Source: Amoebophrya sp. A120 (Eukaryota > Protista > Dinoflagellata). Taken from it: a stretch of 64,000 nucleotides of DNA. A program made the translations under genes and the position numbers. The notes under the pieces are model-generated. The model was given only the letters and a program-made list of their open reading frames with translations. It was not told the origin of the DNA and did not search any database. The stretch spans positions 982,344 to 1,046,343 of the forward strand of contig CAJINV010000013.1 in the NCBI GenBank assembly GCA_905178155.1, in the 5' to 3' direction. How positions within the stretch are numbered: position 1 is the stretch's first letter; every line of letters begins with the position of its first letter. Shown here in pieces: positions 2,570-38,349 of the stretch.

Positions 2570-5500
2570 TCAATCCAGAGCTTCTTCTTGGACAGCAACC
2601 GCGTCGTCTTTGATCGGAGTCGTTTCGCTATCCAAGAAAAAACCTGTGTTAGTGTAACTTTCTTTGGTCGACAGCATCACAAATTTGCTCTACCTGACAG
2701 AGAAAACCTGTCATGCGTGGCTTGTAAGGGAAAACACACACGAATAGAGGACTTCATCATGGCTGTCTGGCATGACAGCTGTAACTCTGTTGCATGTTCT
2801 GCAACACAAATTTACACTTACACAGTTTTTTTCTTGCATATCCGCTGGTTTCATCAGCGTCGACAAAGTCGTCGTCCGCGGTTCCGTTCGGAGTTGTGGT
2901 CACCACAGCCGCCATTTTATCCGCAGCTGCCAGCTGTTCCACGACTTTACTTTCGTGGGCCATGACAGCATCCGCGGACGTGGTCGTCGTACCCTCTCCA
3001 TCTTTGGTTTCTTCAGCCCCTTCTTGCACGGATGATACTTATGCATTGCAACATTTTTTGTCTGGATCATCTAATAAGGGAACCGAGCTTCTGCTCGCGG
3101 CTGTAGCTGTAGGTCGTGGTCACACAAAAGTAAGTATGTCTCTCTTGCATACATGTTGCCACTTCTGGTTTATTCCTTGTATGTTCTTCGACTGGACCCA
3201 GACAAGAACTATACTATACTTGCTGTGGATAATGTTGATGCTCCTACGGCCACTCCTGCTGTGCCATTTTGCGGAGGTTCTACTGCCGTCTCCACGTCGC
3301 CTGTTGACGCTGCGGTCTTTTTGTTCGTCCCGTCCTTGTCATCTGCGTTCTTCTCAGTTCCTGCAGTCTCTTCCTTTTCATCCTCGGTCGCCGTCGTGAC
3401 GCCGGTCGACGCAGGCATGGCGTTGAGCCGGGCCAGCTGCGCCTCGAGTCCCTTCGCCCATCTGGCGTCGTTATCCTGTGCAAAAGTATCGCACTCGTAT
3501 TGTAATCATGCATCACAAATTTTCTTCTCAAGGTAAATCCGCATTACAAATTTAAGTTCTCATGCTGAGGAAATTTGTATATGCATTTATACGAGTACGA
3601 TACTTTTGCAATGCATAGTCGTCGAGTTCTGAGTCCAGGTTGTCTTTGTCGTTGTTTCTTATCAAATGGAAAATAAGTAGGAGCGCTCCCCCGAGAGGGA
3701 ACAAAGTTGAGAACTCTTGCTGTAGCACGTGTACATGCACAAGCATACATTTGCGTTTCTTCCTCATTCTGGAGTACTTACATGCTTACCAGCTAGGAGG
3801 GAGCACATCAAGGACTTTCCATCTTGATATCTTTGGCAGAAGATTTCCCGCTGCCCTTGCCATTGGACTTACCGCCAAATCTATCACGAGAAAAAAGTGT
3901 TACAGTTACACACTCTCATGCACGACAAGCAAGACAAACAACCTCTGCCATGCAGGAAACGCTTGCCAGCGTCATTTCATTCGTGTTTTCCCTTAATATA
4001 GTCTGCGCATTACAAGTTTTCTTTGCCATGCAGAGCAAGTTTGTGATGCTGAAATTACAACAAATGTGTAACTGTAACACTTTTTTCCTGTGATAAAATC
4101 CGCCTTTCTTGCCCGACTGCTGGTGACCTATGGATTGTAAAAATGTCTGGGTCTGGAAGATTCTGACACTTGTCATGCACGTTTTGCATGAGCCCTAATG
4201 TCTGTGATGCATCCCCTAGCAATACAGATTTTTTGAGAGCTTCTTGATGCGTATTCCGCATGACAAATGCCTCCTCAGCGTAGCAAAAATTGCCTTTCTT
4301 TTGGAACTCATGCAATACAAATTTTTTTGGAATCCAAATGCAGCATCACAAGTTGCATTCTTCCAGACCCAGACATTTTTACATTTGATATGACCTCCTT
4401 TGCTGCCACTGTAGGTCGCGTTGCCGGTTTGGCCAGGCGGGGCACTCGCACCTGGAGAAAAGAAGACAAGACGAACTGTGGAACAACTACGGAGCAGCGA
4501 TAAAATCGAGGACGAAAAAGTTTTGGCGATGTTACTTATTTGAAAAGCAAAAGGCACACTGCGAAAATACTACCCTTTTAGTTATCGTGCATCAAAAGAA
4601 AAAACGACAGAGTCACTTAATCAGAATACTGCTTCCAGTCGGGTCCCAGGTCCAGATGAATTTTTCTTCACTATCGGTCAATGTATGCACTTTGAATTTC
4701 AATTTCTTGAGTTTTGCCATGCACAAATAGTAGTAGACCACGCTAGTACGGTCATACGCAACCGCAAGCTAAGACGATGTGCTGCTCAAGAAAGCATCAA
4801 AGCATCCTCAAGATAGATACAGGAGAAGGTTCGCGTGCTAAAAAAGGTACATAAAGAAGCATGGCAAATCTAGAAGAAATATTTCAACTTCGATAACCGC
4901 GCGTCCAAATTGCTGATCCCTTTTCCTTCGAGACTTCGCGCTGCATTGATTTAAAAGTGTGCGAGTTCAACAACAGAATCCTTTGACAGTTGGTCTTTTA
5001 ATATGATGGACGTGATCGAGAAAATGCGTCACGATCATGTTCGTGTCGGTGTGGTTCATCATCAAAAACAGATACTACAAAATATCTTACCAGCACAAAG
5101 TGATTTTCGTAACTTGAGTCGCAAAGCTCGTTGGTTGCCTTCCTTTGTGGACGTGCAAAATTTCTTTCTTTTCCCGAAAGAACTGCTCTCAAAACGCGAA
5201 GATCCTGCTGGGGCTTTCTGCAAACACGGCTACAAGAAAAAATGGTCTTCACAGAAAGCCTTCAGATTCTCGTGTCGCCGACGCAGGCATTACGATAGTA
5301 CATGAAACACTCATTCGGGAAGTAAAAGAACTTTTGTGTTTTCTTAGGTTCAAGAAAAATCGTTTCGACCATGATATTGGATTTGACGCGTCTCTTGCTG
5401 ATACCGTCCATCTTGTACCTCGGAGATGTTGTTTTGAGTGATGATGTGGTCGTCGAAGAGGACGTTGTTTCATACGAATACGCGACTCGCTCCAAATACA

Positions 5501-7565
5501 GACCTTCTCATTCGCTACATCGAACTCCTTGAGCTTGAAGATCATTTTCATTGTGCTAAATTTGTGTATTGAAAATGTTTTCGCTGATACCTTGTACGTA
5601 CACCCGGTTCCGTGCTGGCCGCATGAAGCTATTCGCAATCCAGTGGTTGCCCTGAAGTTCCTCCAGTTTCGCTTTGATATCTTCTGGTAAATCTGCGTCG
5701 GTTGGTATGGAGCTGGAAAAAATCTCTCTGTTCTTTTCGGTCGCTTGGTTTTTCTTCTTTGCTCTAAATCACATCATCTGTTGATGATCAGCACCCGGAT
5801 GTTGAGAGTCAGTGTCATCTTTTGGTGCCATGCTCATGCATGAGGATAATTTCCAGTTCGGTCCTCGGACAAGCCAAGGCAAAATACAAAATTGCAAAAC
5901 ATCGAAAAACATATGGAACGAACAGAAATAGGCTTTTCTTCAACTCCCATACACATCTCTATTGGGTGCATGGATTCGACCCACTTTTTACCTTGTTTTT
6001 TTTGGTTTTCTTTGCCCGGGGCGTAATATTCTTGAATCTGAATCATCGAAGGAACTACGAAAAAACAGAAACAGTTTGCGACTATGCTCCGCTTCCACAC
6101 AGTAAGAATACGCATGGGAAAAATTCCAGTCGCCATGCAAATCAGCACGAAACACAAGCGCAAGATTTTTGCAGCGAGGACCACACTTCTACCACCTACT
6201 GCTACAACTACAAGTACCAGCTCCTTTTCCGCTTCCGTAGCCTCCTTTTTTTCCGCCACCACCGCCGTATTTGCCACCGCCCCCGGAGCCAAACTTGCCT
6301 CCGCCACTGAACTTGCCACCCCCTTTACTTCCGCCACCCCCGAAGGAGGATCCACCCCCGCCGAATTTTCCCCCGGGTCCGCCGTTTCCTTTCGGGTGCT
6401 GATGTCCTCCACCGCCCTTCGGTCCCCCTGCACTGTACCCGTTCATGCCACCACCAAAATTCGGCCCGCCGGGTGGTCCGCCCATGCCGGGAGCGCCACC
6501 GCCTCCCATTCCGCCGTTGTAGGGCTGATGTTGGTGTTGTCCTCCCATCGGATGTTGTGGCCCTGGGGGGCCCATCCCGCCACCTGGCGCCATACCTACA
6601 CCTCCTCCAGGGCCGCCTTTCATCAACATCGGGCCGCCGGGATGTTGATGACCACCCGCCGCGCCGGGTGGTGGACCTCCCATCATCATCGGGCCGCCTT
6701 TCATCATCGGCATTCCGGGGTTCATAGATGGAGGGTAGGCCGGACCGCCGGGGCCCGCCATGTATGCAAGAAGAAAACTGTGTAGTAAGTGTCATGTAAA
6801 GCATGCAACGTCGTTACACTTGTCATGCTGGCCAGCCATAAAAACGTCGTGTCCTCTGTTCATACGCAATGGCCATTTCGATTTCACGCACTAGCTGTGC
6901 ATGATTCTCGTCATGCAGAGCAGATTTGTCATGCTCTTACCCCAACAACAAGACACCTACGCTAACACCGTTTTTTTGTTGGATACCATGGCGGCGGGGT
7001 GCATGGGGTGGTGATTCAGTGCTGCCACACCGGGGTGCATGCCAAAGCCCGGCGCGCCGGGTGGTGGTTGCGACGGGTTCGGCGGGAGTTGCTGCGGTAC
7101 TGGTTGTCCCTTTGCATCTTATCCACGCGGAAAGAAGTTATTTACGGCCTCTGTGTCAACAATTCAAATAAATGGAAAAGAAGGAAAAAAAATTTGATTT
7201 CCTTTGCGAATGTGGTCCGTACAGATCAGGAGGTAGAAATCAGAATTCCGAGAAGTTGATGCTCATCTTTAACATACATGATGCTGTTGACGCGGCACCG
7301 CGCCATCAAAACAACTTATTTGTTTTCCAGGCCGTCGACTGCAAAAGTTCTTTCAACTTTGTTGACTCAGCACAGACCGCACTTTGCTCCGGGTGGATAC
7401 TGCAAAGGGCATTGGTTGCCCCGGTGGTGCCTGCCCCGGGGGAAGGCCTTTTGCTCGCGCGACGTCAGGTCCGGGTGCCGGTGGGGAACTCATCGGAGGC
7501 TGCGGTTGCGACGGTGGCGGGGGGCCTGTGCCGGTTGGCGCGCCGGCCATACCGGTGAGATCCAT
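2570..7565 (-). CDS. Multi-exon Gly/Pro-rich low-complexity protein with an LDSELDD (FoP/ALY C-terminal-like) motif; possibly RNA-binding
   Basis: Exons join in frame after removing introns/introners: MDLTGMAGAP...HPAAM|AGPGGP...GKGAG|ASAPPGQ...SKGG|HQQSGKKGGF|GGKSNG...LDSELDD|ARWAKGLEAQL...SIV|SSVQEGAEE...TS|ETTPIKDD...EALD*. Includes an in-phase 1.77-kb GT-AG intron at 4452-6217. Confidence 0.7.
2629..2840. mobile_element. IR-introner (TATCCAAGAAAAAA family)
   Basis: Ends TATCCAAGAAAAAAC...GTTTTTTTCTTGCATA; flanks TTCGC/TCCGC; similar throughout to 24981-25180; removal restores frame. Confidence 0.85.
3040..3210. mobile_element. Degenerate IR-introner
   Basis: ATACT direct repeat on both sides; TGTCTGGATC / GACCCAGACA inverted remnants; removal gives in-frame SIV-SSVQ. 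Confidence 0.6.
3472..3617. mobile_element. IR-introner (GCAAAAGTATCG family)
   Basis: TIR TGCAAAAGTATCGCACTCGTA / TACGAGTACGATACTTTTGCA; perfect TSD GTCGT; related to 50533-50687. Confidence 0.9.
3882..4095. mobile_element. IR-introner (GAAAAAAGTGTTACAGTTACAC family)
   Basis: ~30-bp TIR, perfect TSD AAATC; close full-length relative at 59899-60115. Confidence 0.92.
4129..4390. mobile_element. IR-introner family A (TGTCTGGGTCTGGAA)
   Basis: TIR TGTAAAAATGTCTGGGTCTGGAAGA, TSD TGACC; reads GT...AG on the minus strand using TSD bases. Confidence 0.92.
6763..6985. mobile_element. IR-introner
   Basis: TATGCAAGAAGAAAAC...GTTTTTTTGTTGGATA; perfect TSD CCATG; internal TGTCATGC motifs. Confidence 0.85.
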
Positions 7566-9291
7566 AATTCTGGAAATTTGGCTCTTGCAACGTCAAGGGA
7601 GAGTTTTTTTATACTACATAGTCGTTCGTGTTAGCTTGGAAGCGTAGTTACATTCCGTTATATAATTTTCGACCGATTTGTTCAAACGCTGCAAACATCA
7701 ATTCGTGCAGCACTTACTTTGTTTCAGGAGTTACTTGCGTTGCTATATTGCCTGGGGGAAGTAGCAATAGGAATAGCGCACAGGAATAGCGCGGTTGATG
7801 TCTAGCTAGACCAACGGACAAAGTGCTGGGAGGTGGTTCGTATATTAGAAAAAGATACTTTCTATCTTATCAGCTTCGCAGTCGTCGCGCAACGTGATCA
7901 CTTCCTCGCGGAAAGTAGTAAGAGATTGTATGTTGGGGTTGGGCCCCCCGCTACTGCGCTGGGGTGGACACTTGAACTAACTTCGACATGCACCACTTGC
8001 TAAAGCCAAGCATACGTCGCAGCCACATCAAAAATCGCTGAGACCTACGATCGCAAGTTGTTTTGATATCTATGTACAGCAGGAAATAAGTCCAGTTCTA
8101 TTTCCAAGAATCCGAAAGGCGCAACGTGAACATGAACATCTTTTGCTGAACATAACATAACTTCTCCGTCCATGAACATGAAGTGGGAGCCTTGTTCTGC
8201 ATTAACCGCGTCATCTTTTCTTGACTCACTTATTTCAGCGCTGTCTTAGTCAAGAAGAAAACCTCAATCAAGTTCCGTCACAAGATGAATTTCAACTTCC
8301 TTGTTCAGCTTTTGAAAGATAGCGGCCCGACCCTGACATCGGAGTCACAGTGGTTTTTTCCAATATCATACTTCTTGACGTGCCTTGGGTCTAGCCAGCC
8401 GATAGTAGGACGAGCACCTGCTGTACCCGACGGACTATGCAGTGGCCGCAGAAATCGCAAAAGAATTTTTCTACAAAATCATCAATTTCTATTTGGGTCA
8501 AATTAACAGAGATAATCCAGCGAATGGCTTTTACACGCCATGACAGAAGAAGTAGAACTAGAAGACAGACTGAGAAAGAAATTAAAATTAGCTTAGGCAT
8601 AGGCATACCCATAAAGAATAAACAGATACAAGTGTTGAAGTTGCAGATGCAGCGTCATACTTTTTTACAACATTATTGTCGGTCCGGACGCTAGCTCTTT
8701 CTTTCGGTACAGACACTTTCCCCGTAAGACCACAGGGAGACCACAGCAAAAAGAAGAAGAACCAGGGCGAGTATACTTTGATAAAATTTTACGACGACAT
8801 TCTGACTTGCAGTTGGTATGTACCGAAAGCAGATACGCAATCGCCAAAGAACATCTTTATTTCTTGGCAACGACGTATATCGTAGTTGAAGTTGTCAAAT
8901 TAAAGAAAAATCCTAGGAAGTATGTAAGCATATCCTACGTGAAAGTTGTTTTTCGCATAGCTCCTAGTGTTCGCGGGAATCCTTTTTTCCCACAATACCG
9001 ATTTCGTTGGAGTTGAAGACATTTCGTTTTCGTTCTCCGTTTGGAATTTTCATAAATAGAATCATTGCAAGCTCTACTTCATGAACACTTTCTCTACAAC
9101 TCATCAAGTTACATTCATATAGCAAATAGAAGGCAGAAGCAGGAAAGAAATAAAAAGATGTAACTGAGGACTGTGAACATTTTAGTTCATCTCCAGGATC
9201 GTCGTGGGCACCAAGTTGTATCTGGTCTGAAACAAGCAAAAAAAGATCCTAGTATGGAAAAGCACCTTCAAAGATGAAATCTTCCCACGAC

Positions 9292-12200
9292 CTACAACTC
9301 CACCTTGACGGGCGAGAACGCGTCTTGTGACACAGCCGTACTCAATTTCTGCCCGCTGCTGCTCCCACCAACATTGCCCGCCCGCACGTCCGTCGCGCTG
9401 CTCTCCTTCCTCAGGTTCTGCTTCATGTTCGCCGAGCTGGCCGTCGTTGATGAGGACGAGGTCGCGTCCGGGGAGGCCAGATTTCCAAAGTTATTCCCCA
9501 TCTTCAGCAATTCCGGCGAAGCCATGCTGTGCTTTGGAATCGAAGAAGACGCGACGCCACCTATGCTAATATTTCCAGCAGTTCCACCGAGTGCCGTCCC
9601 CGCGCCAGCAGCCGTTCCGGGAGCCGCTCCAGGAGCCCCGGGAAGTCTTGAGCTGCTCGTAGAGGAGCTCGCCGGATTCGTGCCGACTTTCACGCCGTTG
9701 ATTACCGTGGGCAGCTGTTGCGCGGCAGCGGCTGCGGCAGTAGGAATAGGTCCTCCTGTTGCTGATGCAATTCCAATTCCACTTCCTCCTGCGTTCAATT
9801 TCATTCCACCACTTGCTCCTGTGACGTTCACATCAGATCCGTAACCCGTTGCGAGGGAACTGGTCCCGGTCATTAGGCTTGAGGAGGAGGAAGAAGAAGT
9901 TTTTGAAGTCGTCCTTGACGCGTTCGTACTAGAGCCAGACTGCAGCTGCTGGTGTGCTGCCGCACTCGCTGTGGTGGCTCCACTCAACTTGCCGCCGGAG
10001 GTCAAGGAAATTGTACTGGCAGCGCTGCCGCCCACTTGCTCTGATCCGGTGGCAAGTGGTGGAAGTTGTCCTGTACCGCTGGTGCCACTAGTATTGTTGC
10101 CAGCAGCTTTATTCGAAGCGATCGTACCGTCGAGAAGCTTGACTAAGTTCCTCGCTTGCGGTCGGTTGCGCACCAAGACGATGTCGAACTCAAATTCGCC
10201 CTCGGAGACGGACTCGATCTCCGATTCCTGGAAGTGCGAGCGGTGCACGAAAACGTCCGCCTGGTTGAAGCGTTTGGCGGCGTCTTCGGATATGGCGTTC
10301 TCAAACGTTACATTCTCAACTGTTACATGAAATTTGTCATGCAAGAACGGCAAAAGTGAAAGGGAAAAGATTGGGCCTTTTGCATTACAGGTTTGGAGCA
10401 GATTATGATGCTATCTAGCGCGTCGAGAAGTTGTCATGCGGAGAAGGCTTGATCGTGTGGAGAGCGATAGTGTTTTTGCATGACAAATCATGTAACAGTT
10501 GAGAATGTAACATTTGAGAACGCCATATCGGAATCCAGAAAGGTGTACTCCGCATCTTGCGGAAAAGGACGGAGACGACCTGATAATTTGTTCGATTGTT
10601 GTTCCGTCGGTCCTCTGGTGCCGTAATTGATTGTCCTGCTGCAAGCGCTACCGCTAGCGGCGCAACATATATAGCGATATTACACGATATCATCGTAGAA
10701 GAATGTCAACAACACGATCCAGTCTGGCATTGCAAAGTTCCAGTACTTGTCTCACTGTACTATGTGTACCCGTAAACTTCGATCTGCCATCAGGCGGGGT
10801 AACCGCCGCTTCCTCCTCTTTCTGCTTTAATTGCGTCACCTCTCGTGCCTGTGGCTGGCCCTTCGCGTTTACCGAGACTTTGAACTGCACCTGGGGTTTA
10901 TTGTGGTGTCTGTCATTTCACCTTTTCATCATGCATTGCAAGTGGTCTCGCTCTCGCAGCAGGAGGAAGGAACTTGTAACTCTCAAGTTTACTGACCCAC
11001 AATGGTCAATGGATTTCATGATCCTGGCGGAAACACTACAACTGGTGTGGTAGTAACAACGAAGTAGTACCTGATCCCCCACTTCGAGGCCCTCAAACTG
11101 CTGTTTGTGCACGAAGACGTCGCGGTCGTACTGATCTTTCAATACCGCGCACGTAATGAAGCCGTAGCCCAAATTGGCGTTGAAGGTGCGAATTACGCCA
11201 CTGAAAACCTTGTCCGCCGGGGGCGCCTTCTTTTTTGCCACCTTCTCACTGATCTTCAATTCCACCGCCTGCGGCTGGTTTTTCTCGTTTAGCGTAAGCT
11301 GGAACTGCACCGGGAGCCCGGGCTCGATCTTGTCCGCGCCTGAGTATTTTTGTGGACGAAATTGATTAGATTAAGATTTACTATATGATTCACAGTACAT
11401 GCTGATGGTGTTGTACATGTACTAGTAAGTGCAAGACAAACATTTCTAAGTTGCGTCTTCGGCATCACAGATTCCAAGTTCTTTTACCTTCGATCTTTCT
11501 GTTGAAGAAGACATCGCGGTCGAATTTCATGTAGAGTTCTTCTTGTCGAATAAAACCAAAGCCCGAGGCGACGTTGAAGGTCTTTACCTGGTGTTTCATT
11601 TTTGTCGTGGTGCTTCATGATTTCATTTTCAAGAACTCCAGCGTCCCCTGTTGGTCATACAACGAATTGGTAAGAAAGCGGCAACTTGAGAATAACTGGT
11701 CTGAAGACATGCGGCGAGTGTTTTATCTGCATCCATCGCATCAAACAGAACAAGTTCTACTTGTAGAACCAGATCCAGAAGAGAAAACTATAATTCGTCT
11801 CATAATTTTTACCACGCCCTCGTAGACGCGGTCTTTGTCAAAACTGGGCTGTGGCGGCTTACTCGGCTGCATCCCGGGGTAAGAACTGGGGTAGAACGAC
11901 GGACCGCTTTGCGTCGGATAGAATGGCTGTGATTGCATCACTTTCTTTTCTTCCAAAGCACGAGCATGTATAATGGCACTGACGTTATTAAAAAAGTAGG
12001 GACATTTATTAAATGCAATTGCAACTACTGCAGGCAGAATGCTCAACATCTTCATTTATTTTACTACCTGCGCCCCCACATTCGCGCTCAAACTTGGAGG
12101 TAACTTTGGTGGGCCGCTTCCCCCGACACCAAAACTCGGTGGCGGCAACCCCGGTGCGGGGCCGATGCTGAAGTTGTTGTACATGTTTGTAGTCTGTTGC

Positions 12201-16491: not shown

Positions 16492-19400
16492 TCAGCCAGA
16501 GTGATGCTGGTGCGCGTGTCCCCCCTGCCCCGTGCCGCTGTTTGCTACCGCGTACCTCGCCTTCTGGATTTGCTCTTCCGTCGCTTGGCCCATGGTTTGC
16601 AACTCCAAATCTACTTGCGGCAACTGCTTGTAGAGACACGGCCCGAATTCCCCGCGCTTCCGGGTCCACCAGAAATCCATGCAGTTGCTGACGCTGCCCC
16701 CCTTGTCCCAGGGGTTCACAAAGTTCTTCTTCACCTGCCCTTTGGGGTCGCTCACCAGCTGCCAGAAGTGCTCGTACCGGTGCATGTTCATCACTTCGTT
16801 CGTCGTGAGGTTCCTGGAGACCAACCGCAGGTGATACGACGTGAGGCAGAGGAGCCAGGGCAACGTGACGACGTGCGAGAAGAGGGAAACCGCGATTATC
16901 GTGTAGTTGGTGATGGTCTAGTTGAGGTTTTGTTTCATCATCAGGATCAACAACATCATCGATACATTGATTGCGAGTCAGTGAAGCCAGCTGTTGCTGT
17001 TCTCTTCTTCATTCTAATTCATGTGGACGTAAGTTATGAGTGAAAATTCGATCAATCCCAAGAACAAGCACAGTGACAGTACTACAAAACGTCTGGTATT
17101 CATCTGCGATCAAGCTGCAACAAAATTATACGAAAACAATGGTGCCCCAGACGCCGTTTTCCGGGTTGTCCTTCATCGCTTCGGACACGATGCAGTACCA
17201 TATCAGCGCGAAATGCGCCAACTGGGTGAAAAACTCCCAGAGACACAGCATCACAAACCGCCTGTTGTTATCCCGGCCAATTGGCACGCCGAGCCAGCCG
17301 CAGTAGTGATCGAACTCGCGCACACACATTTTTGACGTGCTGCAGTACTTCGTGCGCAAGTCCTTTTCTATCCAGGTCTCGGTGCAGAGCCGATGAAGCC
17401 GCTTTTCGTCAAACTTCTCATCGGAATCGATGTCGGCTGCGTGATGTAGTTTTTTGCCATTTTCGTGGTCATTTTGTTTTTGCTATTGCTGGTGCCAAAG
17501 AACAATGTAGGGCAATTTTTGATGGTACCTTATAACGTAGCGCTTCAAAAATAAATATAAAATGGCATAAACAAATCCCCAGCTGCAGGAGCAAAAGCGT
17601 ATGCGTATTAGAATCTTCGAATATGAAGTGACGCAGTTTATACCCATGATTTCCTCCACTGCACTCCTGCCTATGGGTCTTTTCGGCCACGCGCCCGGGT
17701 GGGACTGCGTCATCTGCACAAACGCGATGATTGCCATTGGCACCATGATCCACACAATCACGGTCAGCATCGGTGCGGCCTCGGACCCGACGACGGCTAA
17801 GTACTGCACGTGGACGTAGAGGGCTAATGTCGCGGCACCGAGGTACATGCAGGGAACCAGGTACTTCTGAAAATCCGGTTCGTCCAGCATTTTCTGCATA
17901 TCATTGGCAAAGCTGGATTTTTCTTTCGTGGCCGTCGTTGTTGCGTCCGCCGCTTTTGGCTCCTCGCCTACCCTGGCGCCGATAATCTGCGTCTCGGGGA
18001 GGGATTCCGGGACGAGAGCGGGGTCGGCGTATCCTGAGTAAAAACGTCCCCACGCCAGAGTTGTCATGCAGATTTGCAATGACAGGAACATTTGCAATGC
18101 GCATCGCCAGGAGAGGCATTTTTAGTCGTGTTTTGGAATTTGTAATGCTGTAAACAGGATGAGCAGATGGATTGATGATGCAGCTGGCCTTGCGAACCTG
18201 CACTACACTACGGACTGCAACTTGTGATGCGTGACCCCCAAAAGTTCTAGGTTTGTGTTGCAAAATCCCCATCTTGACTCTGGTGTGGGGATGTTTTTAC
18301 TCAGGATACGGCGAGCTTTTTCACTAAGGCGGTCAGGGACGTATGGAGGTAGGGGTTGTCTGAAGTCGGTTTTTTTGAAAAGTCATCCGATTGCGATTGA
18401 TTTCGATTTGATGTTGAAATTGAAATGCGACTGTGATGTCGCGAAAGTATGTTCACGTGCATGACGCCATTGCAACGTCGTCACGCTTCGGCTTCTCATG
18501 TTGCGCACCAGGAGGCAATAAAAACTTGTTTCCGCTTGACAAACTGCTTGATGGTGCGGCCTTATATCATTCTTGTATATAGCATGTAACTTACTTTTGT
18601 CCTTTGCCGCCAGCTGCATGCAGTCCTCGCCGTCCTTGGTCTTCAGGTAGGGGTTGACTTTCCTCTTTAGCAGAAATTCGCACACCTCGATGCTCCCCGA
18701 CGCCACCGCGCGGTGCAGGGGGGACATTTTTGCGAAGTCTACGTGCTGAAAGTCGGCCTGGAAGTAATCGAGGAATTTCAAATTCATGATGTCTGCCTTG
18801 TAAGCGGCCCAATGGACCGCACCGCAGCCATTGATGTCCATCTCGTCCAAAACTTGCCGGTCACGCTGAAGAAGGAGGAGGAAGGCGAGTTTCCTGTGGT
18901 TTACGTTGTTCTTGTTGTTCGTCAACTTGCGCAATCAGAAGAACTAAACCTTAACCTAATCTTTGTTCACTGCGAAAATTATAGATACGCAACACGGACT
19001 TTTTTCATCTGCCCCTTGTTGTGCACGGCATTTCCTCTCGCTAAATCATGTCTCGCTTTGAAGATATACTGTTTGTGCTGAATCGCCAAAAGGAACGGCG
19101 TTGCGCCGAGGCTGTCTCTTCGTTTTATGTCAGCCCCTCGGGATATCAACATGCGCATGATTTGCACGTGCCCTTGGATTGTCGCCCACATCAATGGTGT
19201 CTGACCGTTGAACCTGATCGACGGGTTGATAAAAATCTTCTAGGTTTACATCTTACTCAATCTCGCCACTTTTACTCGTTGCAAGACAAAATCTGCTTTA
19301 CAATGCAATGCATGAACTGCAGGGGCATAATCACATTTTTCTGTTCGTTCAGTTTATTTGGTTTTGCAAAAACTAGCACTAGTACGTTGCCATCTCCACC

Positions 19401-23382: not shown

Positions 23383-26300
23383 TTAGTCTACTTCGATATC
23401 GCCGCCTCCGTTGCTTTGTCCGCCCTGATTTGACGTCGCGAAAATCCCTCGCGCGCGCGTCCCAGAACTACTAGGAGTCGCCCCCGCTGCACTTCCGAGG
23501 ACGGACGCGAGCAAGCCGCCACCGGTGACCGCCTGCGTTAGTTCCAGCATTCCCTGCTGTTGCAAAATTCGGCGGTACAGCCGGTTGGACGGCTCGTCCT
23601 GTTGCGCGACCGGGTCGTGCCGCGTGAACCAAAAATCCCGGCAGTTGTTCATCACGGACCCCTTGTCATTGTAGGCGTTCGAAAACACCCGGCGCGGCTG
23701 CATCCGCGGGCGCTGGGGCGGTGGGTGTGAGGGATGATGATGATGTCCTTGTCCATTCATTCTGTTCTCCAACTCCTCGTCCACACATATGTCCTCTTCC
23801 TCCTCATGATCATGCGCGTGATCATTACCGTGATCGTGGTGGGCGCAACACTTTTTCTGCCCCATCGTCCCTGCCCTTGCGGTGGTTTTCACCATGATGG
23901 TTTTCCAGAGGTGCGGGTACTTGTGCGCGCTCAGTTGCTCGTTGGTCGTCATGTTGTCCATGACCACCTTAAGCTGAAACAGTGTCAGGCCGATCAGCCA
24001 GGCAAACAGGACCACGTCGAGCAGAAAGACGATACAGTGCCCGAGAAAGTTGTGGTCGTCTGTCGCGTGGTACAGTAGGAAGTGGATCACTTTTCCGGTT
24101 AAGCTCGTCGGCGCCTGCTGCGTGTTCGTGATCACGATCTGTGAAGTAGGCGGTGCTGGTGCATGATTGCCAGCACCTGGTACAACTGTAGCTCCAAGTC
24201 CAACTACATCTGCTGCTGCACCACCAGCACTCGTAGCACCGCTGTCTATTATTATCGGTTGCAACGCCTTGGAGGGGTCTTCCACGGTGTAAAACCAACC
24301 GACTGTCCAGTAGACCGCAAATCTCGTGAACCAACTGGGCTGTCCCCACACCCGTCGTGGCATCACGATTTCCACCGGCGTGGTGGACCCCGTTTCTGAT
24401 GTCGTGGGCACGATAGGAGTAGTTGTGACCACTTCATCTGCCGCTGGAGTGAAGATGGGCAAGGACACGTCTTGGCCGGCTGATCCGCTTGGAGCTCCTG
24501 GAGCTGCGGTTGATAAAGCCAATGCGGCGTCGAAGGTCAGGCTTCGGGTATTACTAGACGAGGAAATAGAATTTTTATCCCACTCGTCTTTCAAAAACGT
24601 CTCGAAGTCGATCCCGAATCGCTCGGGATAGAACCAGCACGAGTAGAAAAACTCGATGAACCTTATGAACATCATGCCCAAGGAGACCATCAGTGTGGTG
24701 ACGAACGCCATGAAACTGCGGTGGTTTCCCCGCCCGACCGCGTTGCCGATCCACGGGCAGTAGTGGTCGAAGTCGTGCACGCACACCCCGGAGACTCGGC
24801 AGTGCTTCGTGCGGAAGTCCCGGATGCAGAAACAGGTCTCGCACAAACGGAAATGGGTTAACAGATTGATCTTCTCCAAATGGTGCGTCTCCGCCAGGTA
24901 GTTGCAGATCATGGTGCGCTGGTCCTTCTCGTTTTTGAACGCCTTCACCGCGCCGGGGTTACTGAGCCAGGCTTTGCAGTTATCCAAGAAAAAAAGATTG
25001 TAGGTGTAACTTTTTTGGAGGAACAGCATTACAAATTTGTCTGGCATGACAGCAAAAACCTGTCATGCGCAGATAGTACGTGAAAACGCCCTTTAATGGA
25101 CCCTACGACGCATGCCAAGCATGACAGACACCATCATCTTGCATGTTGCGCATCACAAATTTACGTTTTTTTCTTGGATAGAAGTACGAAATTAGGAAAA
25201 TCCAGTCGAGGAGAACCATGAGCGAGTGGAATATCGGATTCTCAAATGTTACATTCTCAACTGTTACATGAATTTGTCATGCAAAAGCACCATTATCATC
25301 CTCACGATCAAGCTGCTCCGCATGACAAACTTGCGGAGGGCTAAATAGCACTATAATCCGTCCCAAATCTGTAATGCAAAAGGCGCAATCTTCCTCCTTT
25401 CACTTTTGCCCTTCTTGCATTGCAAATTCGTGTAACAGTTGAGGATGTAACAGTTGAGAACGCCATATGGAAGAAGGTCGGGTTGGTCACGTCTCCAAAA
25501 ACCACCCACCAAAAGAAGCTCGAGACTTTCGCCACGCTGAAATTCGAGAGAAACCGGGCCAACGCGAAGAGCGGGAGAGTCACGATTGTTGCTGGGTTCA
25601 GGAGGAAACTTGTTGTTTCCGCGTCGATCGAAGCGATAATATCGGGTCGACTGTCAGCGGTGAGAATCGACGTCGTGTGAAGGGAAATAGGAGGCGACGT
25701 CGTAGCGGCTGATGCTGCACTTGCAGCATCAAGTTCTGCTACGCCTGCTGATGCGCCAACACTTCTTCCCGGGCACAAGTTCTCTTCTGGCAGTCCCCAG
25801 ACGTTGCAAAATTGGTAGCGGGACCAGTAGATCTTCACGAAAGAGAGAGAAAGAACAATGGCCGGAATGAACAGCTCCGTGAATTTCAGTCGTGGTTTGC
25901 GCAGTGGCATTTTCTGCGACAGCATGGCTTCCAAGATTGCGTCGGGATTAGGTGGATAGAGTTTCAAGTAAACTTGCCCGCACTTCGCTAAAACTTTCCT
26001 CCCGGTTTCGGTCTTCCGCAGTACGCCAGCGGCGCGCAAAGCAATTGGGGCGAGAAAAGCGAACCTACCAGCCACCGCAGAGGATACTAGGCTACTAGCA
26101 GCTGCGGAAGAAGCAAAAACTGAATCCGTCAAATTTACCCCCTGTTCTATCGCGTTTCTCGCCGCGCGCGTTTCTTTGCTCGGTTTTGGAGAGGGGCTGC
26201 CAAACGGATCGTCTTCCTGCTTTTCCTTCATCCGTCTGCGGCACCTGCCGTCCTTGCTGTCCTTTTCTGAAATTCTTTCCGAATTATTCGCGTTGTTCTG

Positions 26301-27692
26301 ATCGACGTTGGTCATCTCCGTTTCAAAAGACCCACCCTTCGAGGAAGATCGGTCCTTACCTCGACCACTACTATTTCTTCCGAGCAGCACCAGCCCGCAC
26401 CTCTCTTGCATCGCTAACTTGAACCGTCTCCAGTTGCTCATCAGCGCCGCTTTCCCGGTGCCGAGCCAGCTCATCCGCTTCTCATCGTCCAGCCTGTCGA
26501 TCTCCTTGCGCAGCAATTTCATCATGTAGTCGTCGGTTCTCGCGGCGATTTGGAAAGCGGTTTCCTCCGACCGCGACTTCGCTTCGTAGTCCACGACGTT
26601 TTCCTGCAGCAAGATCTTCGCGATGTCGTACCTCTATCAACTGTAAAAATGTCTGGGTCTGGAAGATTGCCAGACTTGTCATGCATATTTTGCATGGCCC
26701 CTGATGGCTGTAATGCATGGCCTAGCATCACATATTTCTAGAAGGCTTCCTGATACCTATTCTGCATGAGAAATGCCCTCTCCGTGTAGACCAAACTGGG
26801 CTCCTCTTGCTGGTCATGCAATACAGATTTTTTTCGAATCCGAAGACAGCATGACAAGTTGCAATCTTCCAGACCCAGACATTTTTTCAATCCATAACCT
26901 CCCCCCGATGACACTTCTGTGCAGCGGTGTCATCTGCTGCACGTCTCGGCGCTTGAACAACTTCGCGCCGTAGAGGCGGATCAAGATTTTGACCATCAGC
27001 GACTCGCCGCGGAAGCTGCACCAGTGCGCCGCGGTGCACTGGTGCGCGTCCGTGTCGTCCACGCAGTGGATATCTTGCCCCAGACAGAGCAGGAAGCCGG
27101 GCAGGTTTCCATGTTGGACGGCGATGATGAGCGCGGAGGCGCCGAGCGAGTCCCGCATGCGGAGAACGGATTTTCCACCCTTCTGGATCAAATACCGCAG
27201 CCCGTAAAAGACCGTCGTAGTGTTGCGTCCCGTCGCGTCCTCCACGCTGTCGCGAACCGGATCCACCTTCGTGATCGCCCACATCAAAGGGGTCTGCTTC
27301 GTCTCGACAGCGAACTGGGCCGGGTTGCAGTGCAGTCTCTCGATGCACCACTGCAACACCTCCACCTCCTCCGGGAACAAGGCGGCCCAGTGGAGCAGAT
27401 TATGTCCGTCGTTGTCGATTTGCTGGCCCAGGTAGCGAAGCTTTTCCGGTTTCTCGCGGGCAAAGCCCTGCAGCACCAACGGCATCTCATTCAACCTGAG
27501 TAGGTTGCGGTACTCGCCAAAACTCCAGGGAAGGGACATGTCGTCCCCGGGCGGTCGGGTGTGGAAGGCGCGGTCGGCTGCGGAGGAGGAGGAGGTGCCG
27601 CCATTGGAGGTGTTTTTCGGCGGGCTCATTGGTCGCCCGGCGGCGCCGTGGTCCCGGGGAGCTCCCGGCCGCTGGCCGTGAAGCACTACCAT
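23383..27692 (-). CDS. Ankyrin-repeat DHHC-family palmitoyltransferase (DHYC variant), copy 2
   Basis: HNLLHWAA, QTPLMWA, TAAHWC, TPLHRSVIGGR|YDIAKILL ankyrins; LCETCFCIRDFRTKHCRVSGVCVHDFDHYCPWIGNAVGRGNH; NMTTNE. Start codon uncertain. Confidence 0.9.
24981..25180. mobile_element. IR-introner (TATCCAAGAAAAAA family)
   Basis: TATCCAAGAAAAAAA...TTTTTTTCTTGGATA; flanks GCAGT/GAAGT. Confidence 0.88.
25232..25467. mobile_element. IR-introner (sibling of 10291-10527)
   Basis: Same TIR family; perfect TSD TGGAA; removal gives PTFFH-SLMVLL. Confidence 0.92.
26635..26896. mobile_element. IR-introner family A
   Basis: TIR AAAAATGTCTGGGTCTGGAAGATTGC; perfect TSD ACCTC; GT-AG on minus; splits an ankyrin repeat. 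Confidence 0.95.
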
Positions 27693-31348: not shown

Positions 31349-34300
31349 ATGAGCTCCGCAGAAAAAGACCCGCCGGCGCGTGGGCGCTCCGCAGCACCCC
31401 CGGGCAGCCAGCACTCCGTATCCGACTGCGTCGAGGCCGGCGGCGGGCTGACTCCCTTGGTCGCGAGGATCAAGAAATGCAGCACATCCGTCGGGAAAGA
31501 GCTGATCATGCGCGCGATCGACAAAGGGGAAAAGGAGTTTGAACGTTTGAACCTGCGAGAGGCGTGCGGGAAGCGGCGTCTCTTCGCCAATGACCTTGAC
31601 GACATGCTGAAGCCGCAGGCGGACGAATTGCTGCAGGCCTCCCTACCAGCGCAGGGCCTTCTTCCCAAGCAACAGCGTCTTCTTCCGGGTCCGCTTATCA
31701 AATGCAAACATGTCCGGGTCTGGAAAATTTCGGGAGTTTGTCATGCAAATTGTACATGGCCTCCCATGCCTGTGATGCATTCTCTAGCAACACAGATTTC
31801 TCACGGGTTTGCTCATGTCTATTCTGCATGAGAAGTGCTCTGTTTGAGTAGCATCAATCACGCAATACAGATCTGCAGCAGTCACGCAATACAGATCTTT
31901 GTGTGATCGACAGCTAGCATCACAAATCCCATTCTACTTGCCAGACCCAGACATATTTGCAATGAATGCCGCTTGTGAACATGCAACAACTACCGGCGGC
32001 GTCGAGTGGTAGTAGTAGCAGCTACATGACGGGAGTGCCACTGATGTCGAACATCAAGCAGCAGAAACTTGCGACGGGCAGCAAGCAGAACTTGCTCAGG
32101 GACTATCAGCAGGAGTCTAATTACGTGCAGCGCCCGGCAGGTTCCTCGCGCCTGGACATGATCACGGGCGAGCAGGGGTCGGGATTGTTAGGCTCGGAGA
32201 ACCAGCAACAACAGAGCAAGGGTCAGTCATCGCGGAGTGCGAAACGGCCGGCCGGTTTCGCCTCGTCTTCTTTATCCGCGGACCATGTTGCCCCGGGCAT
32301 GTTCGTATGAGTTGCAAATATGTCTTGGCCTGACAGGTCCGCTGGACTTTGTATATGCATTCGCTGCATTCCTGAAAAACAAATATCTGTGTTGCGCGAG
32401 CGGCAAAAGAGCAGCTTGCTTCATCATGCAGAAATGCAGTCGGTATCTGTAATGCGTTCTAGGCATCAATCTGTAATGCAGTCGCGTCTGTTCTTGTAAT
32501 GCAGAAGTGCAATCTTGTCATGCAGAAATGTATCACAGGTCTGTTTCCAGACCCGGACATGTTTGCGCTTCATATTTTGGCGACCTGGATGAGCAATATT
32601 TCCCGGGCGATGACGAGTTTCACCCCTCAGGACTGGACGGGGCTTTGTCCGAGCAGAGCAGTGACGCAGAATTTGAAAAGTACGATGGGATCAGTAGCTT
32701 CATCCGAAAGCGCATCAAGAACGCAACGCAGGGAGGCAAGAAGAAGAGGAAGGACTCGCTCGACCTCGACTTCGGGGATGGTTTCGGCAACGGAGGCGAG
32801 GGCGGTGAAGGCGAAAACGGTAACGACAAGCCTATCGCGGAGCTGGGGGCGAACTTGAAAAGCAAAAAGATGCAGCAGGGGGGCGCAAAGAGGAGGAAGG
32901 TAAGACCTCTACTCTAGGTCTCTCGGCTCGGTTCTAGATCTTTCTGGCCGGCATCTTTAGGACAGTCCTTGTTTTTTGTCTTCCGCGATCGATTAATGAA
33001 GAAAATGACCCTGTTCTCTTGTTACACAAACCGCAAACGAACCAAAACACAGAAGAACGACCCGCCGCTGCTGGAAGCAGATGGGGAGCACGGAGATGCC
33101 GCCCCGCCCGCGGCGGGCGGAAGAAGGAAGAACGACCCGTACGTTGTCAAGATGGTGGTGCCCCAAACCGTCCAGGCCACGGCCGCGGAGTCCCTCCGCG
33201 AGGGGGAGGGAAGCGACGTGAGGTTCAAAGCGGTGGTGCAGAAGTGGAACAGTGAGCGGCTTAATATGACGCTGCTGAAACCTCCGACGAAAGACGGCAA
33301 GCGGACCTGCTACCTGAGGTGCAGGCTATCGATTGCAAGCATGCCTGGGCCTGGATTAGTGGGCGGAGGGCTTTTTGCTCTTTGCCAAAGATCGGCACGC
33401 TACACTCACATGTGAGACACAGACATAGCATGACCATTTGCCACCGGATGGGTGGTGGTTTTGTTTCTCTTTGCCTAAGATTGGCACGCTAAGTGAAGTC
33501 TTTAGACTTAGCGCGACGAATTACCATCTTCCAGACCCAGACGCGTTTGCATGGAATACAGAGACCCGAAGAGCAATGTGAAGGTTGCGAGCGAGCGAGC
33601 TGGTTGCCAGTGCCTCGTGCGGTGCACCTGGCACAAGGACGCGTTTGAAGCCTACTGCTCAAAAGTCTGCGAGTATGTCGAGGCCGAGCGGAGCCTGCGC
33701 GACGTCCTCCGTCCGGTCGAGCACATGGAACCACTGCGGGCCGCCAATGTGCTAGCTGCGCAGCATGGGAACCCGGAAATATCAAATGCAAAAGTGTGTT
33801 GGTCTGGAAGCTTGAAACTCGTGACGCTAACTTTGGACACTCGAAAAATCTGTATTTTGTGACCACACCGAGGAGTTTAGTTTGTGCTACGCGGGGAGGG
33901 CGTTTGTCATGCGGGGTAGGCATGAGGAATCTGTGATGCGCGGCCGTGCATTACAGACACCCTGGATCATGCAAAACATGCATGACAAATCTCAAAATCT
34001 TCCACACCCAGACATTTTTGCATTTGATAGGACGAACTGGTTGACAAGTTGAACTCGATCAGGCGCAAAGACCGCCGGCAGAAGGCGAAAGAGCGGGAAG
34101 GTTTGGGGGCCGACGAAATTGCAGCGCGGGAAGCCGTATCAACTGGAAACGTGTCAGGGTCTGGAGGGACAACGCGAGCTATCTCTTTTATCGCAACGAG
34201 CGATATCTCGGACATTCGCAATCGATTTCGTCCTCGCGGGGGGGTTCCATCTCGATTTCGATCTTTGGCACCCCTGCATATATCGCTTATATGCATGACA

Positions 34301-37300
34301 AAACCGCGCCTCGCATTCTTTTCCGACTTTGATCTCTCTCGCGGGTCCGTCTCGGTCTAGAGCCTCGTCCGACGATGCACAACGCGAGTGGTTTCTAGTA
34401 GTTTTTGACGTAGACAGGGAGCTGGTGATGGCCCGCCGGGTTCCTCGCGGTTCGTTGGCGTCCTTAACCCGCCGACCGGAGTCGGCGACTTCCGTTAATT
34501 TCAACCGGGAAATTAAGGGAAGTCGCCGACTCAGGTCGGCGGGTTAAGGACACCTTGAAGAACCCGGCGGGCCGCTAGTTGGCTTCCTACTATCAGGGAG
34601 CCCTGCTTTGCTTTCAGAGGTTCCACTTTGCTCTCTGACTACTGTGCTTTCAGGGTACTTTGCTTTCAGGGTACTTTGCTTTCGTTCGCTTTCAGGGTCC
34701 TTGCTTTCGTTCTCTTTCAGGGTACTGCTTTCAGGGTACGATAGCAAGGGCGGAAGGCCTCCAGACGGAAGCTCAAGCCATTTGCGCTTTTTGTTAGATT
34801 AGGTTCTAGATTACTTCGCTCGGCTTATTGTTGTACTTCTCTTAAATTGAGAACGTTTTACAAAAGGCAGTGGCTTGAAAGATCCAGAAAAATGAGCGTC
34901 CTCGTCCTATCTGACGAACAAGGCTTGCTTTTCTTTTAGAAAGTGGCCCCCTTACCTTTCAGTAAAGATCCAGAAAAATGGAGAACCCCGCCCATTCTAG
35001 ACAGGAACAGATGGGTCCACATCATGCGGGAAGGGCGTTTGTCATGCGAGAAAGCTCGTAACGTTCCAGACCCAGACCTATTTGCAACGCATATGCCCGG
35101 GTCGGTGAGGTGGTCCGTCGCTTTCAGCAGTACATGGAGCAGGAGACTCCGTTGACCCAGCTCCCGGTTGAAAAACAGGACGCCAGCTCCGAAAAGATGC
35201 AGACGGTGAGCTATGTCCGTGCGGTGCCGGTGGACGAGAACATGCTGCCGAAAAAAACCGCCATCGTTTCGAGCGCAGTGTGGGAAAAGAGGTCGCGCAA
35301 CTTGGTGCGAGTTTTGAAGGGGGAGCTCGACGCGGACCCGCGCGTGGCGAAACCGGAAAACCAAAAAGGCCTTTTGCCGGTGGAGCAGCCCGATCGATCT
35401 GAAAAAGGACTTGCGGCGCAAAGAAACGAAGCGGCGGCGACAAAGTTGCCAACTATTGGCATCGTTGTCGATGCCACGTACGACAGTATTATGCATACTC
35501 ATCACTTCTGCTGTTGCGTTTCAATGATGTCGCCCTGGCTTCTAATTTTGGTAGCCTCCCCCTGGAAACCGCCAGGCTAGACTCAGAATGAGTGTCGTGG
35601 TACTTAGCATGCAGCCGCATACAATGAGAATCGAATGAATTCAAAAACCACAGTCAACCGCGACAACTGGAGTTATTCCTGTGCGAGTTTGACCTGCCTG
35701 CACCGGGACGACCGCGGAATTATCAGGAGAACGTCCCAGCGCATCGCCGCGGCCTGGTCAGCGGGGGAAAAAAACGAAATGTGGAAGGACTTATGGGCGC
35801 ACTGCAACAAAATTCTGGGTGGTGTGTTGACCTCTGGCGCGTTTGAAGTTCGGGTGATGTGCGACGAACATCTTTCCATCTCGAAGGCGGTGACGGATTC
35901 GTGGGGGAAGCATTGCGTGATCCTGGACCCGCGCCATGTGAGTGCCACCGCGCAGCGAGTTACGTCCGACCCTATCAAATGCAAAAGCGAGTGGGTCCGG
36001 GAGAACACAACCCGTGGCGTTGCGTTTGGATGTCTAGAACATTGGCGCTGCATGAGCAGCAAAAGGAGTCTCGTTTTTGCTGCACGGGGAGGGCGTTTCC
36101 ATTTGTCGTGCGGAATAGGCATCAAGCATCCCTCAAAACAGCTGTAATGCTAGTGCATGCATCACAGACAATAGGGCTGGCTCATGCAAACCGTGCATGA
36201 CATGGCTCGTCAGAATCTCCCAGACCCAGAGATGTTTGCATTTGATAAAACACGGCGTCCAGCAATTTCTCCAAATATATGTACGGCGTGAAAACATGAG
36301 ACGCGCCCGGCTTGGAAGAACCTCCCGACGGTGAAAGAAGGTTTGCCATGCAGGACCGAGGGCAGGGGGTGGACCGACCCGGGGCAGGGGGTGGGCCCGG
36401 GGCAGGGGATGGGCCCGGGGCAGGGGATGGGCCCGGGGCAGGGTTTGGGCCCAGGGCAGGGGTTTGGCCCAGAACCCAGGGCTGGGGTTGGGCCCAGGGC
36501 AGGGGCTTGGCCCGGGGCCGGGGTTGGGCCCAGGTTGGGCAGGAGTGGGGCCCAGGGCAGGGGTTGGGTCCAGGGTAGGGTCTGGGCCACGGGCAGGGTT
36601 TGGGGGGGCCCAGGGCAGGGGTTGGGCCTAGGGCAGGGGTTGGGCCCAGGGCAGGGGTTGGGCCCAGGGCAGGGGTTGGGCCCAGGGCAGGGGTCGGGCC
36701 AATGGCAGGGGATGGGCCCCGGGCAGGGGATGGGCCCTTAGCAGGGGTTGGGCTCGGGGCAGGGGTTTGGCGGGCCCAGGGCAGGGGCTGGGTCCGGGGC
36801 AGGGGTTTGGCCCAGCGGTTGGGCCCCCCCCCAGGCAGGGCGGGGGGGAGAGTGTGGGATCGCCGCTGGCTCCCAGCGTTGGTTCTTGCAGGCCATCTGC
36901 GATTCGTAGACAGCCTGAGCGGTCGCAAGGGTGCTATGTGTCGTTCGTGAAGTCCAAATCTGTATCTTAGTTAAGACGCAGTATGAGCCAGCGCCACACG
37001 CTCCCGAGTGTTCCCTTCCAAAGCCGGGCCGCTTTGTATTGCATAGCGCCGCCAGTGCCCCAATGAAGCGACCGCCCGTCTTTGGGCCTTCTACGGCGCG
37101 GATAAGATAACCAGCAGCACCAGCGACAAGTGGATTGAGAAGCTGATCACCTGGGAACAAGACGACGCATGGATCGGCTGCGACTTTCACCCAGGCTTGA
37201 CGGTGCCACTGACGAATAGCATCGCAAGCAGCCTGCCGGGTCTGGTTGACGGGTATTGGTCCCAGAACAAAGAGAGAGGCTTCAGAACGCTCAAAGGCGC

Positions 37301-38026: not shown

Positions 38027-38349
38027 CGCAGCGGGCCCCATGTTGCTTGCGGGGGACCGCAGCACCGCTGCCGCGGCCTCCGCCGCAGAACTGGAACTCT
38101 GAGGCCGCAAAGCCGCCCCCCCCTTCGTTGCAGAGGTAGATTCTTCGGAAACAACCCCTATGGGCTGGGCTTCCTATGTTGCCCCTGCACTGGCCTGCCA
38201 CAGGAATCGCGTAGGGGGGCGCCCTTGCCTCCGCGTCCGCCTGCCTACGCGGACGCGCAGGGCAGCGGGCGCGCCGCCTGAAGCATTGTAGCAAGCCCCG
38301 GCGGACGCCGCGCAGCGGCGGGAGGCAGTCCGCCCCCTGACTTCCGCAA

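What the first reader, a model, noticed from the sequence alone, without database searches (positions are those of the whole stretch)
3467..10532. Introns with no GT/GC-AG in any register
Seen: on the coding strand 3472-3617 has ACGAC|TAT...ATA|ACGAC, 10291-10527 has TCCGA|TAT...ATA|TCCGA, and 25232-25467 has TTCCA. Sliding through the TSD never gives a canonical pair, yet excision is needed for the frame. Other copies get GT-AG (4129, 26635), GC-AG (33327, 40540) or only one canonical end (45940, 59899) from TSD bases alone. Inference: splice sites are set by the TIR stem or a relaxed/alternative machinery, alongside ordinary GT-AG introns in the same genes.
Basis: partly seen in the sequence, partly recalled or inferred. 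Interest (0 to 1): 0.75.

Follow-up and report, generated by a model that had tools for sequence, protein, structure and literature searches.

The report
Amoebophrya transposon introns, fixed cut position
These are the already published hairpin-shaped transposon introns of the marine parasite Amoebophrya A120; transcript assemblies lack several of them without the usual GT-AG ends, and one informative copy is cut one base before and four bases after the element, likely a general rule read by a loosened splicing machine.

Summary
The window is Amoebophrya sp. A120: one spliced gene is 1198/1198 identical to GSA120T00012444001. The elements are its introner elements (Farhat 2021). I catalogued 22 TAT...ATA elements with 5-nt direct repeats; 18 have no canonical pair in any register. 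DNA-like contigs carry the focal elements. Transcript contigs from one sample lack element+5 nt: two joints are shown directly (43222, 45940), and three follow from exact contig lengths (10291, 6763, 7120). The 3472 junction was not bridged, and an in-frame GC-AG option inside its ends remains untested. A centrin copy with mismatched repeats fixes the cut uniquely: 1 nt before TAT, 4 nt after ATA (CT..CA), skipping an adjacent AG. Two other mismatched copies fit this. Under that register 0 of 22 are canonical, but 22 of 22 start N-T-A, like the GTA of 11 of 11 ordinary introns. Best reading: a relaxed spliceosome cutting at a fixed offset; a Euglena-like non-spliceosomal route is the rival. 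I did not find the register stated in the papers searched. This scan already reported the same system and register on other pieces of this genome.

The parts
3472..3617 (-). Focal introner element, 146 nt, TAT...ATA, direct repeats ACGAC at 3618-3622 and 3467-3471; predicted intron 3468-3618 (CT..GA)
   Evidence: DNA-like contigs run into both ends; retention gives stops; junction not bridged by any contig shown; in-frame GC-AG option inside the ends untested
10291..10527 (-). Focal introner element, 237 nt, repeats TCCGA at 10528-10532 and 10286-10290, in a cold-shock-domain gene; 242 nt removed; predicted intron 10287-10528 (AT..CG)
   Evidence: X3 record 10 piece ends at 10285; a model with 242 nt removed gives exactly its 3513 nt and a 755-aa stop-free stretch, while the GC-AG option gives 3531; PF00313 on one exon
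2629..2840 (-). Element, 212 nt, repeats GCGGA/GCGAA (one mismatch)
   Evidence: junction not seen
3660..3829 (-). Decayed element, 170 nt, repeats AAAGA/AGAAA
   Evidence: removal of element+5 joins the reading frame; junction not seen
3882..4095 (-). Element, 214 nt, repeat GATTT; no canonical register and no in-frame canonical pair within 12 nt
   Evidence: X3 depth 0 at the three interior places listed, 3923-3948
4129..4390 (-). Element, 262 nt, repeat GGTCA; GT-AG possible in one register, AT..TC in the fixed register
   Evidence: register not resolvable from mRNA
6763..6985 (-). Element, 223 nt, repeat CATGG
   Evidence: X3 record 9 piece ends at 6757; contig length 857 is reproduced with 228+285 nt removed
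7120..7399 (-). Element, 280 nt, diverged repeats TGCAG/AGATG; the cut is 0 or 1 nt before TAT
   Evidence: record 9 piece starts at 7400 with 0 other letters; 285 nt needed, while the GT-AG options remove 291 or 283
18030..18308 (-). Element, 279 nt, repeat CGCCG
   Evidence: X3 record 12 piece ends at 18024, other side not shown
24981..25180 (-). Element, 200 nt, repeats ACTTC/ACTGC, in the ankyrin-DHHC gene; cut 0 or 1 nt before TAT in the published gene model
   Evidence: F668 in P0003 and the matching F in relative P0001; other registers give C
25232..25467 (-). Element named in the finding, 236 nt, repeat TTCCA; 84% identical to 10291 in the opposite orientation
   Evidence: removal of element+5 reproduces P0003 exactly; orientation
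26635..26896 (-). Element, 262 nt, repeat GAGGT
43218..43459 (-). Intron of the centrin-like gene with a unique register: 1 nt + element 43222-43458 + 4 nt, ends CT..CA; repeats CGCTC/CGCAG
   Evidence: joint 43217 to 43460, skip 242, both=0, in 4 of 4 runs of one sample; translation; 'centrin' is my recalled label, not a database hit
45940..46191 (-). Element, 252 nt, repeat CCAAG; 257 nt removed
   Evidence: joint 45934 to 46192, both=5, 4 of 4 runs
33327..41415 (+). Five further elements (33327-33558, 33780-34029, 35973-36247, 40540-40857, 41190-41415) in putative plus-strand reading frames
50533..60115 (-). Three further elements (50533-50687, 52614-52829, 59899-60115)

Best explanation
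These are short inverted-repeat insertions flanked by a 5-base duplication, missing from transcript contigs together with exactly 5 flanking bases, and they are likely removed by a relaxed spliceosome that cuts at a fixed offset, 1 base before TAT and 4 bases after ATA. SHOWN: the anatomy; presence in DNA-like contigs; removal of element+5 nt (2 joints listed, 3 by exact contig length); the unique +1/-4 register at one copy; the strain's identity. INFERRED: (a) the elements are non-autonomous DNA transposons whose insertion made the 5-bp repeat; (b) the register is general; (c) the 5' end N-U-A is read like the G-U-A of this organism's ordinary introns with the first base freed, the hairpin brings the two ends together, and the 3' cut is measured from the ATA (a candidate branch A at -7 or -5) instead of from an AG. 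Since 1+4=5, every insertion leaves the mRNA unchanged whatever the target sequence or orientation, which would let the elements spread through coding exons at little cost.
For: Centrin-like joint 43217 to 43460: skip 242, both=0, 4 of 4 runs. It ignores an AG 1 nt further on and an in-frame GC-AG pair. Copy 7120: cut 0-1 nt before TAT, and its in-frame GT-AG option is not used. Copy 24981: 0-1 nt according to the published gene model. So 3 of 3 informative copies fit +1/-4. In that register 22 of 22 start N-T-A and 0 of 22 are canonical, while 11 of 11 ordinary introns start G-T-A (6 bridged, 5 from the length-matched model). All 9 'predominant' A120 classes in Farhat Table S4 have T at +2, as do all 9 A25 classes. 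Family members occur in both orientations on the coding strand (10291 vs 25232, 3472 vs 50533, 45940 vs 26635). Farhat et al. report 83 of 89 spliceosomal proteins and U2/U4/U5/U6 in A120 but no U1. A relaxed U2 spliceosome has precedent in tunicates.
Against: Only one copy fixes the register uniquely. The four RNA runs are one sample, contigs only, and are flagged 'RNA?' by the tool; the gene model may rest on the same kind of data. Nothing here tests the chemistry (lariat or circle) or the enzyme. TAT/ATA conservation is partly circular, because I searched for it, and a transposase would explain it equally. 4 of 22 copies have a canonical register against 1.2 expected (about p=0.04 by my hand Poisson estimate), a mild excess that a strictly fixed register does not predict. 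Ordinary introns show no fixed branch A (A at -7 in 6 of 11, at -8 in 7 of 11). 8 of the 9 A120 Table S4 classes also have A at -2, so aligner or strand effects may shape that table. [quoted passage not shown] The focal 3472 junction was not seen.
Confidence: 0.55

Rival explanations
1. The register is the same, but a separate structure-guided route removes the elements: the hairpin is recognised, cut at fixed offsets and the exons ligated, releasing a circle or a linear intron, as proposed for euglenid nonconventional introns.
For: Strong stems; terminal TAT/ATA paired in the predicted fold of most copies. Both orientations are tolerated. No G at +1 and no AG. U1 was not detected. Euglenid introns also have a short 5' and a longer 3' unpaired end and leave as circles.
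Against: The terminal three pairs are often cut off by an internal loop (positions 4-8 complementary in only 11-16 of 22) and have pairing probability 0.02 in the one copy with a fixed register. The +2U/+3A match to ordinary donors would be a coincidence. The Euglena signature (C at +4) is met by 1 of 22 copies (read).
Confidence: 0.32
2. The register varies by copy: the ordinary spliceosome uses GT/GC-AG wherever the repeat or the element's ends offer it, and other registers elsewhere.
For: 4 of 22 copies have a canonical register against 1.2 expected. In-frame GC-AG options lie inside the ends of all three focal copies. This is the pattern in other dinoflagellate introners.
Against: Available canonical options are not used at 10291 (contig length 3513, not 3531), 7120 (285 nt, not 291 or 283) or 43222. 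The published model of 25232 does not use one either.
Confidence: 0.08
3. The joints are not splicing: they come from reverse-transcriptase template switching across a hairpin between direct repeats, or from excision at the DNA level.
For: A hairpin between short direct repeats is the classic substrate for template switching (recalled, not from a call). Only cDNA-derived contigs were seen.
Against: The centrin-like joint has no microhomology (both=0) and lies outside the three shared bases of its repeats. Retention would break conserved reading frames. DNA-like run X1 spans 4366-10316 with 0 differences, including elements 6763 and 7120, and runs into the ends of 3472 and 10291.
Confidence: 0.05

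Closest known systems
Introner elements / non-canonical introns of Amoebophrya sp. A120 (Farhat et al. 2021, PMC7789003: abstract, sections 10, 11, 12, 16, 25, passages, supplement part 2 and Table S4 rows read; figures not visible. Also Gozashti et al. 2025, PMC12130899: passages)
   Same: Same strain (P0003 identical). Inverted repeats start TAT + 7 nt + AAA, direct repeats of 3-5 nt, mean length about 240 nt, no GT-AG, mixed with canonical introns in the same genes; 29,850 such elements reported.
   Different: The paper leaves the border 'variable/unknown' and sees no clear splice signature; here mismatched repeats point to one register with N-T-A at the 5' end. Unseen figures (Fig. 3, S19-S25) may already show part of this.
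Euglenid nonconventional introns (PMC11282704 and PMC12501133: passages)
   Same: Inverted repeats near both ends, flanking direct repeats, no GT-AG, coexist with spliceosomal introns, probable MITE origin, register found from non-slidable copies.
   Different: Signature N3CDG...CH'GN5-6|R, not N-TAT...ATA-N4. Circular excision is shown there and untested here.
Fritillaria/tunicate non-canonical introns (PMC11282704: passages; PMC13326754: start of abstract and three passages)
   Same: Transposon-derived, non-GT-AG introns handled by a modified U2 spliceosome.
   Different: They keep preferred ends (AG-AC, AG-AT); here only +2T/+3A and an ATA 5-7 nt before the 3' end are constant.
Introners of Polarella, Symbiodinium, Aureococcus and Micromonas (bioRxiv 10.1101/2020.10.14.339549 and PMC9860276: passages)
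   Same: Non-autonomous inverted-repeat transposons whose splicing removes the element plus one target duplication.
   Different: Those recruit G[T/C/A]-AG sites from the element or the duplication, in registers that vary with the target; these need neither site.

Membership tests
Amoebophrya A120 introner element | Host is Amoebophrya sp. A120 | tested here: met
   Spliced window gene is 1198/1198 identical to P0003, named GSA120T00012444001.1 / CAD7966288.1
Amoebophrya A120 introner element | Inverted repeats at both ends forming a hairpin | tested here: met
Amoebophrya A120 introner element | Ends start TAT, 7 variable nt, AAA | tested here: met
   30 of 44 ends exact, 36 of 44 with a 6-9 nt spacer; the search required TA(T) ends
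Amoebophrya A120 introner element | Direct repeat of 3-5 nt at the borders | tested here: met
   5 nt; 11 of 22 perfect
Amoebophrya A120 introner element | Repeated in the genome, about 240 nt long | tested here: met
   mean 232 nt; 16 pairs above 66% identity in the window; very many X1 contigs pile on the elements
Amoebophrya A120 introner element | Removed from RNA as a non-GT-AG intron | tested here: met
MITE / non-autonomous DNA transposon | Terminal inverted repeats, fixed-length target duplication, no coding capacity | tested here: met
   (longest stop-free stretch 27-89 aa)
MITE / non-autonomous DNA transposon | Cognate transposase or empty-site alleles | not testable with these tools
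   No genome held. Relative P0001 reads collinearly across three sites, but its DNA was not seen
U2 spliceosomal intron | GT/GC-AG ends | tested here: not met
   CT..CA at 43218-43459; 18 of 22 have no canonical register
U2 spliceosomal intron | Branch-point lariat and snRNP dependence | not testable with these tools
   only contigs were available for this strain
Euglenid nonconventional intron | N3CDG...CH'GN5-6|R signature | tested here: not met
   C at +4 in 1 of 22 in the fixed register (read; signature)
Euglenid nonconventional intron | Excision as a full-length circle | not testable with these tools
   needs RNase R or circle sequencing

The most novel reading that the evidence does not exclude
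All A120 introners follow one hidden splice code, exon|N-UA(U)...AUA-NNNN|exon. It needs neither the first G nor the AG, works in both orientations, and matches the 5-bp target duplication exactly (1+4), so any insertion is silent in the mRNA. It is read either by a U1-less spliceosome with an ultra-short branch-to-3' ruler or by an undescribed stem-guided splicing machine.
Probability: 0.7. Interest if true: 0.6.

Novelty: already known. Interest (0 to 1): 0.33.

Why it matters
The finding as stated re-discovers a system published in 2021. How these tens of thousands of introns are excised is still open in the papers read. A fixed register turns 'variable, unknown borders' into testable coordinates: where to look for a branch point, which bases to mutate, and how to re-annotate the genome. 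It would also explain why insertions into coding exons are tolerated at any sequence and in either orientation. This window adds one unambiguous junction and two compatible ones to a rule that other reports in this scan already propose.

Tried and rejected
No whole genome was held, so no genome-wide count was possible. Raw-read RNA runs X9 and X10 put only 122 and 4 reads on 2300-19000, nearly all on one element end, so they gave no junctions. In one search the DNA-like run swamped the joint table (15 of 637 rows shown), so the joints at 2629, 3472, 3660, 3882 and 4129 were not seen. No contig bridged 40540 or 41190; that says nothing for or against their splicing. Three searches for a database protein of the gene holding 3472, to read its junction, found nothing. 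Pfam found nothing in the plus-strand frames at 31-42 kb or in the exons around 3472. Rfam found 0 matches in the window. A candidate at 7563-7620 was included and dropped before the count of 22 (58 nt, 0 of 5 repeat matches). Unpaired or decayed ends (31696, 32306-32574, 34137, 40054, about 49334) were not counted. A first k-mer scan was mis-specified and replaced. Considered and rejected: nearby canonical sites (10291, 7120, 43222), DNA-level excision, template switching, minor-spliceosome AT-AC introns (ends do not fit; U12 system reported absent). Literature searches for a stated register; none found in the listings or passages read. The review PMC11453091 was seen only as a listing. The figures of Farhat et al. 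and the supplements of the Gozashti papers were not seen and may bear on this.
Full report
Observation. The three named copies are as described. On the minus (coding) strand each reads 5-nt repeat, TAT...ATA, same 5-nt repeat, at 3472-3617, 10291-10527 and 25232-25467. None of the six registers gives GT/GC-AG, and retention puts stops in frame. An end-profile scan and inspection gave 22 paired elements in the window; one weak candidate and several unpaired ends were left out. Mean length is 232 nt, the repeat is 5 nt, and 18 of 22 have no canonical register. Ten pairs pass a strict test, against 0 in each of 30 resampled windows. The focal hairpins fold with z -15.6 and -7.8.

Identity. Removing element+5 nt at 26635, 25232 and 24981 yields a 1198-aa ankyrin-DHHC protein identical to P0003, named Amoebophrya sp. 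A120 GSA120T00012444001. Farhat et al. 2021 (PMC7789003) describe for this strain more than 60% non-canonical introns averaging 240 nt, inverted repeats beginning TAT, seven variable bases and AAA, direct repeats of 3-5 nt, 29,850 repeated introns, genes mixing both intron types, and no detectable U1. Here 30 of 44 ends match TAT-N7-AAA exactly. The finding is therefore a re-discovery, and the published gene model already treats 25232 as an intron.

DNA versus RNA. Run X1 behaves as DNA of this strain: one contig covers 4366-10316 with no differences, through elements 6763 and 7120, and others run into both ends of 3472 and 10291. Runs X3-X6 (one sample, contigs, flagged 'RNA?') behave as spliced RNA: they skip six GT-AG introns. 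At 10291 an X3 contig of 3513 nt has a piece ending at 10285. Its middle was not displayed, but a five-exon model with 242 nt removed gives exactly 3513 nt and a 755-aa open stretch, while the GC-AG option gives 3531. A second contig (857 nt) is reproduced by removing 228 nt at 6763 and 285 nt at 7120; the canonical options at 7120 would remove 291 or 283. At 45940 the joint is listed directly, 257 nt. The 3472 junction was not among the rows shown, and three protein searches gave no gene model. Its internal GC-AG option therefore remains open.

Register. The centrin-like gene has a copy at 43222-43458 whose repeats differ at positions 4 and 5. All four runs join 43217 to 43460 with no ambiguity. 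The intron is 1 nt + element + 4 nt, ending CT..CA. An AG lies one base further on and an in-frame GC-AG pair is available; neither is used. The joint has no microhomology, which argues against template switching and against DNA repair. Copy 7120 allows a cut 0 or 1 nt before TAT, and the published model of 24981 likewise, since other registers change F668 to C. So three of three informative copies fit +1/-4, but only one fixes it. Applied to all 22, this register gives no canonical intron and makes every 5' end N-T-A. The 11 ordinary introns examined all start G-T-A. All nine predominant A120 classes in Table S4 of the paper have T at +2, though eight also have A at -2, so aligner effects cannot be excluded. 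The paper itself calls the borders variable or unknown. Related copies sit in both orientations on the coding strand, so the signal is probably in the symmetric ends.

Mechanism. Most likely (0.55) a relaxed U2-type spliceosome keeps the U+2/A+3 reading of the donor, drops G+1 and AG together, is helped by the hairpin, and measures the 3' cut from the ATA. All of this is inferred. The rival (0.32) is a separate stem-guided route, as proposed for euglenids. Against the stem as the exact ruler: positions 4-8 of the inverted repeat are complementary in only 11-16 of 22 copies, and the terminal pairs have probability 0.02 in the centrin-like copy. Against my reading: 4 of 22 copies have a canonical register where 1.2 are expected, ordinary introns show no fixed branch A, and the RNA evidence is one sample of contigs.

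Novelty. The system is already known. I did not find the fixed register stated in five literature searches, but I could not see the paper's figures or the supplements of the Gozashti papers. After I had derived the register, the scan's index showed reports on other pieces of this genome reaching the same +1/-4 reading; these are unreviewed notes and not independent support. The attention to 'UA' and to the A at -7 was prompted by one of them and checked here only in part. Interest 0.33: a real and strange system, published, with a useful but already-noted increment.

Noticed in passing
window 20931-22878: Four near-identical (99%) tandem copies of a 486-bp unit; no Rfam match.
   Followed up: no
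window 53057-55038: 13.6 tandem copies of a 146-bp unit, 95% alike, close to nucleosome length.
   Followed up: no
window 31300-41730: Plus-strand reading frames against the prevailing minus-strand genes, packed with partly decayed elements and holding two CxC...CxH motifs (about 37870-37935 and 40920-40965) that recall SWIM zinc fingers of Mutator-like transposases (recalled). No Pfam hit; no contig matched the exons at 39400-42000. Possibly a decayed transposon gene.
   Followed up: partly
window 34430-34573: GC-rich near-perfect palindrome (46-nt arms, 6-nt loop) inserted within a decayed element that starts at 34137; not of the TAT...ATA kind.
   Followed up: no
window 40540-40857: Element whose left end reads TAC instead of TAT and which has an internal duplication near 40758-40820.
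   Followed up: no
window 14401-14538: Apparent GT-AG intron that begins GTAT and carries the GCATGAC motif common inside the elements; possibly an old element turned canonical.
   Followed up: no
window 8186-12824 (minus): Cold-shock-domain gene (PF00313 on one exon) with a long low-complexity tail and over 1 kb of transcribed sequence downstream of the reading frame.
   Followed up: partly
window 42890-42957 and about 30480-30560: A short sequence occurs in opposite orientation at both places; contigs leave the window at 42939-42957 into the sequence seen near 30480-30510 (loose ends). Probably another small repeat.
   Followed up: no
ordinary introns, e.g. 10580-12067 and 43507-47352: The 11 GT-AG introns examined all begin GTA and have A-rich 3' ends, mostly without a pyrimidine tract.
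   Followed up: partly
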